This document shows positions 6,001 to 12,000 of a stretch of 64,000 bases of DNA, one piece after another. The DNA is taken from positions 60,200,445 through 60,264,444 of the forward strand of contig JASCQW010000162.1 in NCBI GenBank assembly GCA_030264375.1, given 5' to 3'. Position numbers: made by a program. This DNA comes from Carcharhinus longimanus. Lineage: Eukaryota. The first letter of the stretch is position 1; every line of letters starts with the position of its first letter.

Positions 6001-9000
6001 TCAGCTTACCGCAGAGTTGCAGGAAGGGAAGTGAACGGGACAGAACAGATAAAACTGTTACGCAGGGCAGGTGGCGAATATTCAGGATAGTCTGCACAGG
6101 GCTGTGATTGAAGCTGATAACAACAGTGATCTGAACAAGGAGTTGGAATATTAGGTAGAGAACTTCATCTTCTTTGTTTTGAATTACAGGGCCAGTGAGA
6201 TGAACCAAAATAGCTCTTTCGGAAACTGTACGTTCCTGTGTTTCTATGAAAAATGTAGCCTTGCCAGTTGATCGGGTGTGAAGCAGTAAGGTCAACTCAG
6301 TGCCAAAGAAGAAAGCTGAGTTTGTGTCATTTCAGGACAATAGTTTGTTCACAATTAGAATATTACGTTCAGAACCAAGCATCCCTGTAGAGAAAGAACA
6401 TTAAAACACAAAGACTGTTCAGCAAAAATTAACTAGGATAATGCCAGAGATGGGCAGCTTTAATTCAGGAGAAACTTGTGATACTGGGACTGTTTATATT
6501 GATTCACACAGGGCAAAGAGGAAATTTGACAGGGGTTTAAAGTTATGAAAAGTTTTGATAAGTGACAAAAGATCATTGATTTAAAATTGTCAGAAAGAGC
6601 ACAGAGAGAGGTGGAAGAAATTTTCTTTCACATTTTCTCCTTCGATCATGCCATTGAAAATGGTTGACAGTAACAACTGCAACTTTTAAGGAAAACCACA
6701 AAAATATTTGAAACATGGGAAGGCTATGGCTAGAGTGCCAGTAGGTTTAGTTTGGATTTGCTCTAGCAGAGCAGTGGAACAGAAGTGATTGGCTTAATGA
6801 TCTTGTGTGCTGTAAAGTCCGTTTATCTGGTTCAGCTTGAGGAGGTTGATAGAGCTGGACCTTATCTGAAGTGCTGTGAGAACAAACCAGGATAATTTTT
6901 CTTATATGGAGCTAAAGAAAATTAAGGTCTGTCCAAATCTTCATGTCAGACAGCACAGATATGGTGTCCATTGGTGGAGGAGGGGAAAATTGGATGTATG
7001 AAAACTGACCATATGCTTGCACATAATCTCTTCATAGGGATAGCATATAGAATTGCAGAATGACCTAGCAGGCAAAGAAACCATTAGCCTATCACATATG
7101 TGTCAAACCTTTAAAATTATCCAACTGACTCCAGTCTGCTATGGTTTAAAAACATCATTAATTTCTCAACACATTACCATCATCCTCTTGAGATTATGAA
7201 GAGCACGATAGAATTAAAAAAACTTTGATAAGAAACAATTTTTGTTGATATAATTGGTGTCACTGTCTTTGGGCTGGGTAGGGGGCAATCAGCCAAGATT
7301 GCCCCAATTACCCTGTAATTTGTTTTGCCTCCAATTATTTACTCAATTCTGTTACAAGTGATGGCTAAGTGAATCGAGGATAGAACAGTGGGCATGTTAT
7401 GGGATCTAATGGCATTGGAAGTTACAGATAGTTCTATGGCTTGGTAGGTATAGATGTGATCAGCGCAACTTGTGGGCCGAAGGGCCTGTTTGAGCTGTAG
7501 TGTTCTATGTTCTATGTGCTGGTTATGGTGTATTAGCCATACTAAATTCTCCCCCAGTGTACCTGAACAGGTGCTGGAGTGTGGCAACTCAGGGATTTTC
7601 ACAGTAACTTCATTGCAGTGTTAATGTAAGCCTATTTGTGACACCAATAAATAAACTAAGGAAAAAATATCCTTGCTAGGCACTAGGGTTTTAAAATCAA
7701 CACTTTTAGAGAGAAAAGCAGGATTCTCCTGAAGTTTTGGCCTTCCTCAATCAACACCACCAAATCTGATTCAGTAATGATTTTCTCTTTTGTTCTTTGT
7801 TGGACTTTATTGGGCGCACATTTGCTGTTGTGGTTGAATATGTAACAGTACTGACTATACTACAAACATCATTTATTGCCTGTGAGGCACCTTGCAATAA
7901 TGCAAAAAACACGAAAGGTGCAAAGTAAATTTCTTCGTTTGCCACAACTACCCAGAGTCATTGTCCTTTCTGAGACACACTGGATGGGCCACAATTAGAA
8001 GTGTCACAACACAAGAGGCCTGGGCCACAGTTACCCAGAGTCATTGTCCTTTGAGACACACTGGGCTAAATGGCCATCTCCTGTGTTGTAAATGACTCTT
8101 CACACAAAAAAACCCCAAAAATATTCAGAGTAATTTGTTGGATGTGGTGCATTTATGGACATCATCAAATGTAAAATCACCACTCTACTTGCGCCCCCCA
8201 AAACGGGCATGTTCTCTGGCAGTGGAGGCGGCTCACTATTGGTTGCTGGCAGGATCTTCCTGTCCCGTTGATATCTACAGCGTCACCCACCCTGCCACCA
8301 GGGAACCCCTCTGTGTGGGGAAGGGGGAGTAGTGGGGGGGTTCCCTTTGGCAGGACTGGAGGATCCCGCCATTAGGAGTAGAAATTTCTCTTGGGAGATG
8401 CCACAAAGTTTGGATTAGCCACCATTGCAGCCAGTGGAAATGAATATCAGGTATTGTGTAGAAAGGGAGATTGATTTCATACCACACATTTTGTGTTACC
8501 TCCTGAGATGTATCAAAGTCTTATGAATTATGTTAAGGTTTAATTGCAATCACATTTTTAAATAGGTCAAGGATACTTGTACACCAATAAATAGGGATAG
8601 AAGGGGCTGGCCCTTCAATTTGTCTTACCTTCTTCCAGATTTGTTAATTATGCTTAACGGAGTAGTTAAGTTAAAGTTTATTTGTTAGTGTCACAAATAA
8701 GCTTACATTAACACTGCAATGAAGTTTCTGTGAAAATCCTCTAATCGCCACACTCCAGGGCCTGTTCGAGTACACAGAGAGAATTTAGCATGGCCAAGGC
8801 ACCTAACTAGCACATCTTTCAGACCACGGGAGGAAACCGGGGCACCTGGAAGAAACCCACGCAGACACGGGAAGAATGTGCAGACTCCGCACAGACATTG
8901 ACCCAAGATAGGAATTGAACCCGGGTCCTTAGCGCCGTGAGGCAGCAGAGCTAACCACTGTTCCACTCTTCTAAGTACAAATGGGGATAGCTGGGACACT

Positions 9001-12000
9001 GGTTGTGTTGGAGTAGAACTGACTTTGAACTAAGTGAATAAACTCTTTTCCATAAAGAAAGCTATTGTCTAACTTTTAAACTGGTGCAGATCCAGTTAAC
9101 TAATTAATTTCTATCCGAGTTCTTATTCTAATCTTATCCTATCTATCCCGGATGACTTATCTCATTGATTCGATTCAGCTAGATTATCTAATTAATGAAA
9201 AGGTTCACCAGGAATGTAACAATGAGCAATACAGCTTGCATTGCAACTGGATACATAGGAGGTTCTTGCCTGTCTCCGGGCGAGTCACCTTGCTGGTGAT
9301 GAATGAAAATGAAAATAAATGGGACAAATGGCATACAGGAGGATGATCGTGCTCTACTTTAGCTGCGGACCTCCTGTCCTTTCTGCTCACAATTACCAAC
9401 CTACTTTTGACGCTTGATCATTTTATTCAGTTCTTGTTCTCAATTACAATGTCAAGTGCACTTACAGCTTCCAAATTTAAGGGGGCAAGCATGGACATCC
9501 ATAGGAAAGTCTTCCAGTTGCATGGGGCATTCAGCAGAAATGGTCAATCTGTAAAACAGAACATACAACCCCAGTAATCTTCCATCCGCTCCAGAGATTT
9601 CTCGCAGTTGCATGATGAAGGTGACGGATGATAACATAACTCGGATGAATCACTCATTAGCATTCAATCAGGATTCAACTTATTCCTGATGAGCTGACCC
9701 TGTGCGCGATGTAAACTAACGTGGTTAATGCAGTAATTTCATATTAATACGTTGTTGTACCAAAGTTTCAGTGGGTTTTCATATAAATTATATAAGCTGT
9801 GATAAATGATAAATTAGGTTTTTTACAATGTGTTAGAGGGAGCTGTGCGAAAATGAGAAGCAAACGCTTTAATTAACTGAAGCTCCCCTTTATCAGCATC
9901 AAATTTATTGGGTCACGTTCATTATGGCTCCTCAGATTAACCATTTCAGGTTCATTCAGAAGCAAAACCGATTTTGTTTTTTATGTTGACTTCTTTCTGC
10001 GGTGAATGAATGTGGCCCTTTATAAATGTATGATCAAGTTAGGTCGACAGAATAAATATGGATANNNNNNNNNNNNNNNNNNNNNNNNNNNNNNNNNNNN
10101 NNNNNNNNNNNNNNNNNNNNNNNNNNNNNNNNNNNNNNNNNNNNNNNNNNNNNNNNNNNNNNNNTATGGCTTGGTAGGTATAGATGTGATCAGCGCAACT
10201 TGTGGGCCGAAGGGCCTGTTTGTGCTGTAGTGTTCTATGTTGCAGGTGATTGACAGGCATTGGAAGAGGAAATTTTTAAGAAGATGAAGTGACTAAATAG
10301 GCACTGATCAGAATGTAACCAGGAACGAGTAGTGTCATGATAGTGGAACAAAGGACTGATCAGGAGCTTTGAAAGTAATAAAGACGAGATTTGCCAGATG
10401 TGCAGGATATTGATGACTCAAGGCTGAGAAGTTAACATATTTTGTAATGCATATATAAAACACTATGGGCTTTCCCACTGATTCCCACTGGCTTCCCTGG
10501 TTTCCATCCACCCTCCAGTATCTCATTCAAGAGATTTCTCAACATACATTGTTGGCCATTAAGTAGAGTACTAGCAGCCTATTCAGTGCATAGAGCATCG
10601 CAACTGAGCCTAGCTCTGTTTCCATCAAAGTCCACACGTGCACTTCCCAGCAGGAATCATGAGATAATCAGGATCATAAAACCTGGCTGATTTCCCCCTA
10701 CCCACCTCAAAGACACTGAGGCCAATTATATCAACCAAACATGTTTCTTATCCAAGTTTTTAACCAGTTGCACTTCTTATCACCATTAGAGGATGATGGC
10801 AATGCATTGAAAAATCAATTATTTTTATAAACCACAGGCTTTAACTGCAGTATATATGCGCTGGTGGATCTGTCATATTACAGAATTTCCACAACATGAT
10901 CAGAACTTGAAACAAAAAGGGAGGTCACGCAACCAGCCATCAAACCTGGGTAGTGCTAACTTTTGAACTGCAGCTATCTACTTTAATCTCAATTTGCTGC
11001 ACCTCATGCCAGTCCTTCCACATTCTTCCTTTTCAAATACTTAAGTCAATTTCAAAGGTGTAATCTATCATTGCTATGGCTCACTCCTAAAGAGGTAGGG
11101 ATAAAAATGCACAGAAGTTAATGTTACTTTCATAAAGATTCTTATTTAGTCCACTCATGGTTTGCTGTGTGTAGCTCTGGTCACCGTATATTAAGAAACA
11201 AGAATATGGGGGCTGTGAAGGATGTGGTTATCAGAAAAGGCTGGGGCTCTTTTCTTTAGAAAAAGGAAGGCTGAACAGTGAGTGATCTGATGGAGGTTTT
11301 TAAGTTTATCAAAAGATTTAATAAGTTGTTTACCTAAAGAATGTGTAACATACTACAATATAGAATAATTGAGGGGAATAGAATAGATGCATTTAAGGAG
11401 AAACACATGAAGGAGCAAGAAATAGAATATTTGACAGGACTACCTGAGACAGGGTGGAAGGAGGCTTATGTGGAGCATAAATGCAGATTTGAAGCTTTTG
11501 GGTAAATAGTCTCTGTGTTCTTTGGACATTATATGACTACAATTGAATTGTGGGAAAATGCTCATCATTGTAATGCAACAAATTACATTTTTATAGCGCC
11601 ATTAATATTGTAGACACATCCCAAACTAATTCGTAGAAGTGATTATCAGATCAAATTTGACATTGAGCTACATTAGGAGGTATTAGGACTAATGATCAAA
11701 AACTTGATATAAGAGGCAGATTTAACAGTATGATTGTCTTAATAGTTATTCTGGTTAACATTTTTACTTCCTAAATTGTGGTTGGAAGAGAGGTTGGGGG
11801 GAATATACAGTATTCCTGTTCTATGTCCTGTGTTTCCATGTGTAAAGTTTCTATGTCTAAAGGTGTGCACTGTGCCTAAGTTCTGCTTCCATCTTCTGTG
11901 CCTTCAGTTCTAAATGGAGTTTTCATTCCCCACAGGCTATTATAAAAGAAGGTCTTCTGATGAAACAGACAAGTTCATTTCAACGTTGGAAGAAAAGATA

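What the first reader, a model, noticed from the sequence alone, without database searches (positions are those of the whole stretch)
9000..10064. Orphan GABA-A receptor alpha (GABRA5-like) Cys-loop exon antisense in the presumed first DGKD intron
Seen: a stop-free 83-nt exon at 9548-9466 with a polypyrimidine/AG acceptor and GTAAGT donor, encoding the full Cys-loop, inside about 1 kb of repeat-free DNA. I found no other GABRA exon by eye in the window. Established: alpha subunits sit in GABR clusters (GABRB3-GABRA5-GABRG3), and human DGKD is not in such a cluster. Inference: the most likely cause is a misplaced contig; the alternatives are a DNA-level transposed gene fragment (it retains intron flanks, so it is not a retrocopy) or a true overlapping gene.
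Basis: partly seen in the sequence, partly recalled or inferred. Interest (0 to 1): 0.7.

Follow-up and report, generated by a model that had tools for sequence, protein, structure and literature searches.

The report
Misplaced shark GABRA5 exon in DGKD
A perfectly intact exon of a shark GABA-A receptor alpha-5 gene sits alone upstream of DGKD exon 2, but the layout of the draft assembly around it suggests it was most likely put there by an assembly error.

Summary
Window 9548..9466 (minus strand) is a stop-free 83-nt exon with a polypyrimidine/AG acceptor and a GTAAGT donor. It encodes the whole Cys-loop. It matches 27 of 27 residues in all 5 elasmobranch GABRA5 proteins examined, and 22-24 of 27 in other chondrichthyan alpha subunits. 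No other GABRA5 exon is in the 64 kb.

The exon lies 2.4 kb upstream of DGKD exon 2. DGKD exon 1 is not in the window, and a 100-N gap separates the exon from every DGKD exon.

The first 77 nt after that gap (10165-10241) repeat 7435-7511 at 76 of 77. Other copies of the same repeat family are only 78-80% alike. So the 2553-nt stretch 7512-10064 that carries the exon hangs between an internal overlap and the gap. The only other near-identical pairs in the window (94% or more) also sit at gap edges.

GABRA5 and DGKD lie on records of different length in two chromosome-level shark assemblies.

Best reading (about 0.65): the native GABRA5 exon and its intron flanks were joined to the DGKD intron through a repeat, making a chimeric contig tail. 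A real, young DNA-level insertion (about 0.27) is not excluded. Reads or other shark genomes, which I could not reach, would decide.

The parts
9466..9548 (-). 83-nt GABRA5-type Cys-loop exon (1 nt + 27 codons + 1 nt), encoding (R)[27 protein letters not shown](Y)
   Evidence: PDB alpha-5 E=4.2e-13. Pfam Neur_chan_LBD. 27 of 27 identical to 5 of 5 elasmobranch alpha-5 proteins.
9549..9570 (-). Acceptor: pyrimidine-rich tract ggttgtatgttctgttttac followed by AG (AG at 9550-9549)
   Evidence: Read directly.
9460..9465 (-). Donor GTAAGT
   Evidence: Read directly. The boundary after ...KFGS plus 1 nt agrees with the exon-skipping isoform P0009, which reads ...KFGS|CEYVIM.
7512..10064 (.). 2553-nt block that carries the exon: the tail of the left contig, lying between the internal 77-nt overlap and the N gap. 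This is the suspected foreign (GABRA5-locus) sequence.
7435..7511 (+). Left copy of the 77-nt sequence (3' tail of an interspersed repeat ending in TTCTATG-type units; the 'CR1-like LINE tail' label is recalled)
   Evidence: 76 of 77 identical to 10165-10241. The third family copy, 22329-22396, is only 78-80% identical.
10065..10164 (.). 100-N assembly gap between the exon-bearing contig and the contig that carries DGKD exon 2
   Evidence: Not filled or looked up.
10165..10241 (+). Right copy of the 77-nt sequence. It starts at the very first base after the gap.
7514..7657 (+). 3' half of a SINE-like interspersed repeat. It begins right at the point where the left contig departs from the right contig.
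   Evidence: 84% identical to 8815-8675, 83% to 56059-55921, 78% to 14426-14292. The SINE label is recalled; ARAGORN and Rfam found nothing.
8666..8966 (-). SINE-like interspersed repeat copy, same sense as the exon and 500 nt downstream of its donor
   Evidence: 76-78% identical to 55911-56212 and 14289-14569; partial matches at 13230-13400 and 23002-23160.
11936..12046 (+). DGKD exon 2 ([37 protein letters not shown], start of the PH domain), with acceptor cacAG and donor GTGATT
   Evidence: tblastn E=5.6e-18 to S. canicula DGKD-like X3. Pfam PH E=1.3e-6. Sequence.
7139..7295 (+). Left arm of an inverted repeat whose partner is 10684-10837. These are the only two copies of this family in the window.
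   Evidence: 78% over 159 columns; alignment A1. No target-site duplication seen.
10684..10837 (-). Right arm of the same inverted repeat

Best explanation
The exon is the genuine Cys-loop exon of this elasmobranch's GABRA5 gene, with its own intron flanks. In its native gene it encodes the disulfide-bonded loop of the extracellular domain of the alpha-5 subunit. Its position upstream of DGKD exon 2 is most likely an assembly artefact.

A short, nearly identical repeat tail (77 nt) is present both in the DGKD intron and, by inference, in a GABRA5 intron. The assembler ran from the DGKD intron (up to about 7511) through this repeat into GABRA5-locus sequence (7512-10064), where the contig then ended. 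The true continuation of the DGKD intron is the next contig. That contig starts with the same 77 nt (10165-10241) and was scaffolded after a 100-N gap.

Shown here:
- the exon, its identity and its intact splice signals;
- the absence of all other GABRA5 exons;
- the gap;
- the 77-nt overlap;
- the fact that near-identical duplicates in this window occur only at gap edges.

Inferred: that 7512-10064 comes from the native GABRA5 locus, and that 7511 continues directly into 10242.

A less likely form of the same explanation is that the whole left contig (1-10064) is GABRA5-locus DNA, wrongly scaffolded.
For: 1. The exon is coded perfectly. It matches 27 of 27 residues in 5 of 5 elasmobranch alpha-5 proteins (sharks and a ray), and AG and GTAAGT are intact. 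A native exon would look like this. An old orphan copy would not.

2. No other alpha-5 exon occurs anywhere in the 64 kb (five queries, E up to 50).

3. No DGKD exon lies on the same gap-free stretch as the exon. Exon 1 is absent from the window, and the gap 10065-10164 comes before exon 2.

4. 10165-10241, the first bases after the gap, equal 7435-7511 at 76 of 77. The third copy of that repeat family in the window is 78-80% identical. The SINE-like copies are 70-84% alike.

5. In a self-comparison of the whole window there are 23 non-self pairs. All four pairs at 94% or more touch a gap edge:
- 22502-22542 = 23002-23042, 41 of 41, on both edges of the 459-N gap;
- the 77-mer described above;
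- two overlapping pairs at the 53790-53889 gap.
Unmerged overlaps at contig ends are therefore a habit of this assembly. By that habit the true junction is at the 77-mer, and 7512-10064 is an overhang.

6. At 7511/7514 a repeat tail abuts a 5'-truncated SINE-like copy. The sequence after that copy does not resume the flank seen at 10242 onward. So this is a breakpoint, not a simple repeat insertion.

7. The inverted-repeat pair 7139-7295 / 10684-10837 has only these two copies in the window. This suggests that the DNA left of 7435 and the DNA right of 10241 are true neighbours.

8. The assembly is poor here. There are 12 N runs in 64 kb. DGKD residues 58-171 of P0126 give no hit between 19.07 and 54.2 kb.

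9. GABRA5 and DGKD proteins come from records of different length in S. canicula (160,845,508 vs 163,470,629) and C. carcharias (169,918,123 vs 239,769,335).

10. Passages of PMC8081667 state that false duplications are among the most common assembly errors, that they can be mistaken for exon duplications, and that they often sit at contig boundaries at about read length.
Against: There is no N between 7434 and the exon, so some assembler step did find support for the join at 7511/7512.

The two 77-nt copies differ at one base, and the last 7-9 nt of the repeat tail differ. Two young, independent copies of one repeat family 2.7 kb apart would give the same picture. The break in homology at the 3' end of the repeat is expected under both readings.

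A young real duplication would also show a perfect exon.

The other clear gap-edge duplicate (41 nt) lies directly on both sides of its gap. Here the left copy is 2554 nt inside the contig, so the analogy is not exact.

I could not see reads, this assembly's GABRA5 locus or any other shark genome DNA. The different-chromosome argument rests on record lengths in other species, not in this one.
Confidence: 0.65

Rival explanations
1. It is a real, young DNA-level copy. A fragment of at least 2.5 kb of the GABRA5 locus (intron, Cys-loop exon, intron, with its resident repeats) was inserted antisense into DGKD intron 1. Possible routes are ectopic repair or template switching primed on the shared repeat tail, or a segmental duplication. 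The copy would be non-functional: a lone 83-nt exon that is out of frame on its own. At most it could be spliced into antisense transcripts.
For: The block is contiguous (no N) with 7.4 kb of left-hand sequence. It is the same genome's DNA: its SINE-like copies match those in DGKD introns at 76-84%, and the exon carries the elasmobranch-specific valine. Intron flanks are kept, so it is not a retrocopy. The arrangement [77 nt][block][gap][77 nt] could be a real duplication flanking an insertion. A DNA-level duplication of the homologous 83-bp exon is on record for mouse Glra1 (passage of PMC3484359).
Against: A 77-nt flanking duplication is much longer than usual target-site duplications (recalled). 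No terminal inverted repeats with a target-site duplication were found. No LINE-tail arrangement fits a transduction: the repeat tail lies before the block, not after it. The right-hand junction is hidden in the gap. Near-identical duplicates in this window otherwise occur only at gap edges. There is not a single coding change, although an orphan copy is under no constraint.
Confidence: 0.27
2. It belongs to a true GABRA5 or GABRA5-like gene that overlaps DGKD antisense. Its other exons would lie outside the window or in the gaps.
For: The exon and both splice signals are intact. The gaps are of unknown size. Downstream exons could lie beyond the left edge of the window.
Against: The upstream alpha-5 exons would have to lie at higher coordinates, and none is found in 9549-64000. 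An intron of more than 54 kb would then have to span at least ten DGKD exons. None of the downstream exons is in 1-9465 either. GABRA5 and DGKD come from different records in two sharks.
Confidence: 0.03
3. It is contamination with DNA from another organism (human or another species) that was joined into the scaffold.
For: None beyond the oddness of the location.
Against: Residue 18 of the peptide is V, as in 5 of 5 elasmobranch alpha-5 proteins. Human alpha-5 (PDB chains) and 4 other bony vertebrates have A, and the chimaera has F. The block holds two copies of the same SINE-like family that is found in the DGKD introns of this window. I therefore do not take this contig for human. A second elasmobranch as the source cannot be excluded, but nothing suggests it.
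Confidence: 0.02

Closest known systems
Native GABRA5 Cys-loop exon of elasmobranchs (GABA-A receptor alpha-5 subunit gene)
   Same: 27 of 27 residues match S. canicula, R. typus, H. akajei, C. carcharias and C. punctatum alpha-5. The C-x13-C signature is present. The exon is 83 nt; the homologous exon of mouse Glra1 is also 83 bp (passage of PMC3484359). The donor boundary agrees with an exon-skipping isoform (P0009).
   Different: It stands alone. None of the other alpha-5 coding exons is in the 64 kb, and its scaffold neighbours are DGKD exons.
False duplications and unmerged overlaps at contig boundaries in draft vertebrate assemblies (Rhie et al. 2021, PMC8081667; passages seen)
   Same: A near-identical short duplicate starts at the first base after a gap (77 nt, 76 of 77). 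A second gap in the window has an exact 41-nt duplicate on both edges. The paper warns that such errors can be read as exon duplications.
   Different: The left copy lies 2554 nt inside its contig instead of at its end. The artefact proposed here is therefore a chimeric extension plus an unmerged overlap, and not a simple duplicated contig end.
DNA-level duplication of single exons or gene fragments: segmental fragments, and the exon 5 duplication of mouse Glra1 'cincinnati' (PMC3484359; passage seen)
   Same: The exon is copied with its intron flanks and is not processed. It is the same homologous 83-nt exon class of the Cys-loop receptor family.
   Different: The Glra1 case is a tandem duplication inside its own gene, mediated by short intronic repeats. 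Here the exon would have moved to an unrelated gene, antisense, and the event itself is unproven.
Exon capture by mobile elements: LINE 3' transduction, Pack-type or Helitron capture (recalled, not searched in papers)
   Same: Repeats lie next to the block, and an inverted-repeat pair brackets the region.
   Different: The inverted repeats have no target-site duplication. The LINE-like tail precedes the block and recurs after it, which is not the transduction layout. No transposase or helicase ORF lies nearby.

Membership tests
GABA-A receptor alpha-5 subunit (GABRA5) coding exon | Cys-loop signature: two cysteines 13 residues apart within the Neur_chan_LBD domain | tested here: met
   The peptide contains [15 protein letters not shown]. 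Pfam PF02931 scores E=3.1e-7, 30.5 bits against a cut-off of 26, and 2.7e-8 for the 65-aa frame.
GABA-A receptor alpha-5 subunit (GABRA5) coding exon | Residues that separate alpha-5 from the other alpha subunits in this segment (ISAECPMQ type) | tested here: met
   27 of 27 in 5 of 5 elasmobranch alpha-5; 26 of 27 in chimaera alpha-5 and in 4 bony-vertebrate alpha-5; 22-24 of 27 in 7 chondrichthyan alpha-1-, alpha-2- and alpha-3-type proteins (17 proteins examined). Human alpha-5 26 of 27, alpha-3 25 of 27.
GABA-A receptor alpha-5 subunit (GABRA5) coding exon | Canonical exon borders and phase (83 nt, AG...GT) | tested here: met
   The 3' border agrees with isoform P0009. The 83-bp size of the homologous exon is confirmed only for mouse Glra1. 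That GABRA genes share this size is recalled.
Complete GABRA5 gene at this locus | The other coding exons are present in order on the same strand | tested here: not met
   tblastn of 5 alpha-5 proteins against the whole window: only this exon. The next best hit has E=0.18 and lies in a repeat.
Complete GABRA5 gene at this locus | Location in a GABRB3-GABRA5-GABRG3 type cluster | not tested
   No beta-3 or gamma-3 protein was fetched or searched. The only neighbours found are DGKD exons. Pfam gave no further Neur_chan hit among the 219 frames scanned.
Processed pseudogene (retrocopy) | Exons fused without introns; poly(A) tail; target-site duplication | tested here: not met
   An intron-like acceptor and donor flank the exon. 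Neighbouring exon sequence is absent. Weak similarity of the upstream flank to the preceding exon was seen in one of six frame tests (12 of 2000 shuffles reached it) and is treated as chance.
Assembly artefact (chimeric contig tail or misplacement) | The block abuts an assembly gap and its other end lies at a repeat | tested here: met
   The gap is at 10065. The junction at 7511/7514 lies between a repeat tail and a truncated SINE-like copy.
Assembly artefact (chimeric contig tail or misplacement) | The next contig overlaps the sequence before the block at near identity, well above the level among repeat copies | tested here: met
   76 of 77, against 78-80% for the third family copy. All four pairs at 94% or more in the window lie at gap edges.
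Assembly artefact (chimeric contig tail or misplacement) | Reads or read pairs do not support the junction; the native locus lacks the exon | not testable with these tools
   No reads, no copy of this assembly and no shark genome DNA were available.
Mobile-element exon capture | Terminal inverted repeats with a target-site duplication, or a LINE 3' end followed by the captured DNA and a tail | tested here: not met
   The inverted pair 7139-7295 / 10684-10837 is 78% alike, and its outer flanks do not match each other. The repeat tail lies on both sides of the block. The right junction is hidden by the gap, so this test is incomplete.

The most novel reading that the evidence does not exclude
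In this elasmobranch, a segment of at least 2.5 kb of the GABRA5 locus, carrying the intact Cys-loop exon with working splice signals, was recently copied at the DNA level into DGKD intron 1 in antisense. It is bracketed by a 77-nt duplication. This would be a fresh case of single-exon relocation between chromosomes: raw material for exon shuffling or for antisense exonisation inside a signalling gene.
Probability: 0.27. Interest if true: 0.45.

Novelty: not a real feature. Interest (0 to 1): 0.15.

Why it matters
If the placement is an artefact, as I think most likely, it matters only in practical ways. This assembly probably lacks the Cys-loop exon at its true GABRA5 locus, so gene models for GABRA5 may be broken there, and a spurious 'GABRA5-like' fragment may be annotated inside DGKD. 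The same signature (a contig tail lying between an internal overlap and a gap) could be used to flag other misplaced pieces in this assembly. If the placement is real, it would be a very young inter-chromosomal relocation of one intact exon with its introns. That would be of moderate interest for the study of exon shuffling, but with no expected function.

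Tried and rejected
1. The 27-residue peptide was too short for the search for homologous proteins (error). I sent the window's whole stop-to-stop frame (65 aa) instead.

2. I looked for DGKD exon 1 in the window with 12 DGKD proteins at E up to 20. For 4 of the 12 I listed the plus-strand hits below E=5, and none lay upstream of exon 2 apart from a chance-level hit at 8096-8269 (E=0.95). Whether 1-7434 is DGKD intron therefore rests on indirect evidence, namely the inverted-repeat pair.

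3. I tested whether the exon's flanks hold decayed copies of the neighbouring alpha-5 exons, using local alignment in 3 frames on each side with 2000 shuffles each. Five of the six tests were at chance level. One upstream frame scored 40, and 12 of 2000 shuffles reached that score. A different frame gives the 'DGRLL' resemblance seen by BLAST. The two cannot both be homologous, and Pfam sees nothing there. I rejected both as chance.

4. I tested the inverted repeats 7139-7295 / 10684-10837 as the ends of a capturing transposon. There is no target-site duplication, so this was rejected as shown, and kept only as a sign that the two sides are neighbours.

5. Rfam at gathering thresholds and ARAGORN found nothing in the window. 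The 'SINE' and 'CR1-like tail' labels are therefore recalled and not tested.

A search with whale-shark alpha-5 (1967 proteins at E<=1e-100, 120 listed) showed six chondrichthyan alpha-5 cluster representatives, and all six hold the segment. No exon-less form surfaced, but clustering at 90% identity could hide one. The species of the window stayed unresolved: its DGKD exons are 94-100% identical to those of Carcharodon, Cetorhinus and Scyliorhinus, with two private residues in the exon at 56275-56379.

7. Unnamed hits (sources lgn and ena) were left unused.

All work was exon by exon.

9. The paper search for the 83-bp exon in GABA-A genes found only a glycine-receptor review. I did not search papers for shark GABRA5 or DGKD, so I make no claim about what is in print on that.

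10. Supplementary files of papers were not consulted.

Full report
**1. The observation**

On the minus strand the window reads ...ggttgtatgttctgttttacAG, then 83 nt, then GTAAGT. The 83 nt (9548..9466) are open in one frame: 1 nt, 27 codons, 1 nt. They give [27 protein letters not shown] (P0001), with two cysteines 13 residues apart.

- Against all PDB chains the best matches are human GABA-A alpha-5 (E=4.2e-13, 26 of 27 identical) and alpha-3 (3.2e-12, 25 of 27). Alpha-1, -2, -4 and -6 follow, then gamma-2, then glycine receptors.
- Pfam places it in Neur_chan_LBD above the curated cut-off.

The exon is real and is not a chance frame.

**2. Which gene**

A search with the window's 65-aa stop-to-stop frame around the exon returned mainly alpha-5 subunits (289 of 318 candidates at E<=0.001, 120 listed). 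I compared the 27 residues with 17 named proteins:

| Proteins | Identity to the exon peptide |
|---|---|
| 5 of 5 elasmobranch alpha-5 (Scyliorhinus canicula, Rhincodon typus, Hemitrygon akajei, Carcharodon carcharias, Chiloscyllium punctatum) | 27 of 27 |
| Chimaera alpha-5 | 26 of 27 |
| 4 bony-vertebrate alpha-5 | 26 of 27 |
| 7 chondrichthyan alpha-1-, alpha-2- and alpha-3-type proteins | 22-24 of 27 |

The valine at residue 18 is shared only with elasmobranch alpha-5. Human and other bony-vertebrate alpha-5 have alanine. The exon is therefore an elasmobranch GABRA5 exon. Together with the shark-type interspersed repeats on the same contiguous stretch, this excludes human contamination, and I do not take this contig for human.

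The donor border is the canonical one. The exon-skipping isoform P0009 reads ...KFGS and then jumps to a later exon. The homologous exon of mouse Glra1 is also 83 bp (passage of PMC3484359). That GABRA genes share this size is recalled.

**3. Is it alone?**

Five chondrichthyan alpha-5 proteins were run by tblastn against the whole window at E up to 50 and word size 2. Only this exon was found (E=5e-15). The next best hit (E=0.18) lies in a reverse-transcriptase repeat at 52.5 kb.

I also ran Pfam on 219 stop-to-stop frames: all 130 frames of 75 aa or more in the window, plus all 89 frames of 30-74 aa overlapping 6900-11900. No further Neur_chan hit appeared. Between 6900 and 11900 the only hits were this exon and the PH domain of DGKD exon 2.

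All work was exon by exon.

**4. The surroundings**

DGKD is on the plus strand.

| Exon | Coordinates |
|---|---|
| Exon 2 | 11936-12046 |
| Exon 3 | 18975-19058 (or to 19070) |
| Eight further exons | between 54214 and 63480 |

These exons are 94-100% identical to Carcharodon, Cetorhinus and Scyliorhinus DGKD. DGKD exon 1 is not in the window. DGKD residues 58-171 of P0126 give no hit between 19.07 and 54.2 kb.

The window has 12 N runs. The first is 10065-10164, which lies between the GABRA5 exon and every DGKD exon. 'First DGKD intron, antisense' is thus right as far as the scaffold goes, but it rests on a scaffold join.

**5. The anatomy that decides my reading**

The first 77 nt after the gap (10165-10241) equal 7435-7511 at 76 of 77. 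This sequence is the 3' tail of an interspersed repeat. Its only other copy in the window (22329-22396) is 78-80% identical, and the SINE-like copies in the window are 70-84% alike.

After the 77 nt the two contigs part:
- The left one runs into a 5'-truncated SINE-like copy (7514-7657), then unique DNA, then a second SINE-like copy (8666-8966), then the unique kilobase with the exon, and stops at 10064.
- The right one runs into other unique DNA and then DGKD exon 2.

The sequence after the truncated SINE-like copy does not resume the right-hand flank, so 7511/7514 is a breakpoint and not a simple repeat insertion.

A self-comparison of the whole window gives 23 non-self pairs. All four pairs at 94% or more touch a gap edge:
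- an exact 41-mer on both edges of the 459-N gap (22502-22542 = 23002-23042);
- the 77-mer;
- two overlapping pairs at the 53790-53889 gap.

Unmerged contig overlaps are therefore a habit of this assembly. Read in that light, the true join is 7511 to 10242, and 7512-10064 (2553 nt) is an overhang that does not belong there.

An inverted-repeat pair whose only two copies in the window lie at 7139-7295 and 10684-10837 fits the idea that the DNA on the two sides of the block is truly adjacent.

Passages of Rhie et al. 2021 (PMC8081667) describe false duplications as among the commonest assembly errors. They say these are liable to be read as exon duplications, and that they often sit at contig boundaries at about read length.

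**6. Synteny**

The S. canicula alpha-5 protein comes from a record of 160,845,508 bases and its DGKD-like proteins from one of 163,470,629. For C. carcharias the figures are 169,918,123 and 239,769,335. If each pair of records belongs to one assembly version, which I could not check, the two genes are on different chromosomes in both sharks. A native GABRA5 next to DGKD is thus not expected.

**7. Explanation and rivals**

Most likely (about 0.65) this is the native GABRA5 Cys-loop exon with its own intron flanks, joined to the DGKD intron through a near-identical repeat tail during contig building. A wholly misplaced left contig is a less likely variant of this.

A real, young DNA-level insertion (about 0.27) would give the same perfect exon, and could give the same [77 nt][block][77 nt] layout. 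It needs an unusually long flanking duplication, and it has no mobile-element signature that I could find.

A true overlapping gene (about 0.03) would need an intron of more than 54 kb across at least ten DGKD exons.

Contamination (about 0.02) is contradicted by the elasmobranch-specific residue and the shared repeats.

**8. What stayed unchecked**

- No reads, no copy of this assembly and no shark genome DNA were within reach. The closed collections (metagenome and viral contigs) were not used, and genome contigs holds only bacteria and archaea.
I therefore could not list the members of the shark GABRA5 and DGKD clusters, name the window's species, or see whether its own GABRA5 record lacks this exon. 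The third protein search showed no exon-less chondrichthyan alpha-5 among the cluster representatives (6 of 6 hold the segment).
- The labels 'SINE-like' and 'CR1-like tail', and the reading of fixed 100-N runs as joins of unknown size, are recalled. Rfam and ARAGORN found nothing.

**9. Verdict**

The interesting part, an orphan exon inside another gene, is most likely not a real feature of the genome. Interest is low unless read-level evidence shows that the join is real.

Noticed in passing
window 22502-22542 and 23002-23042: An exact 41-nt duplicate lies on both edges of the 459-N gap, inside an interspersed repeat. It is probably an unmerged contig overlap, so the gap may not exist.
   Followed up: partly
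window 53736-53789 versus 53896-53974: Copies 92-97% alike, of tandem-repeat type, flank the gap 53790-53889. The gap seems to sit inside a short tandem array.
   Followed up: no
window 19071-54213: DGKD residues 58-171 of P0126 (end of the PH domain, linker and first C1 domain; several exons) give no tblastn hit, although exons 2-3 and the later exons are present. They are presumably lost in the seven N runs of this stretch (22543-53889) or missing from the assembly.
   Followed up: partly
window 19059-19070: DGKD exon 3 can be read 12 nt further (SSSD), as in S. canicula isoform X3. The other isoforms stop at ...NSFT and go on with the next exon, which suggests an alternative donor.
   Followed up: no
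window 56275-56379: This DGKD exon (second C1 domain) differs at two residues ([13 protein letters not shown] against VHTACKDMLPIKC) from Carcharodon, Cetorhinus and S. canicula, and at three from Pristis. The neighbouring exons are 100% identical. The window's species is therefore none of those four.
   Followed up: no
window 7139-7295 and 10684-10837: An inverted-repeat pair, about 155 nt and 78% identical, with only these two copies in the window and no target-site duplication. Without the 7512-10164 stretch the arms would be about 660 nt apart, like a small foldback or non-autonomous DNA element.
   Followed up: partly
window 52459-52941 (-) and 31946-32227 (-): Reverse-transcriptase fragments (Pfam RVT_1, E=3.1e-13 and 8.1e-4), that is, LINE remnants in DGKD introns.
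   Followed up: no
window 19554-20243: An internally repetitive stretch: overlapping self-matches offset by about 90-430 nt, 74-80% identical, just downstream of DGKD exon 3.
   Followed up: no
window 9631-9783 (-) and 9560-9589 (-): Two weak resemblances, in different frames, between the exon's upstream flank and the end of the preceding alpha-5 exon. One is 'DGRLL' against 'DGTLL'. The other is a 53-residue low-identity alignment that 12 of 2000 shuffles reached. Both are probably chance.
   Followed up: partly
window 2107-2819: A local cluster of 75-95-nt repeats, direct (2540-2614 / 2745-2819, 92%) and inverted (2107-2201 / 2648-2742, 91%). A weak sub-threshold Pfam hit to a KDZ-transposase-associated CxC1 motif lies at 2226-2453 (E=0.0095).
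   Followed up: no
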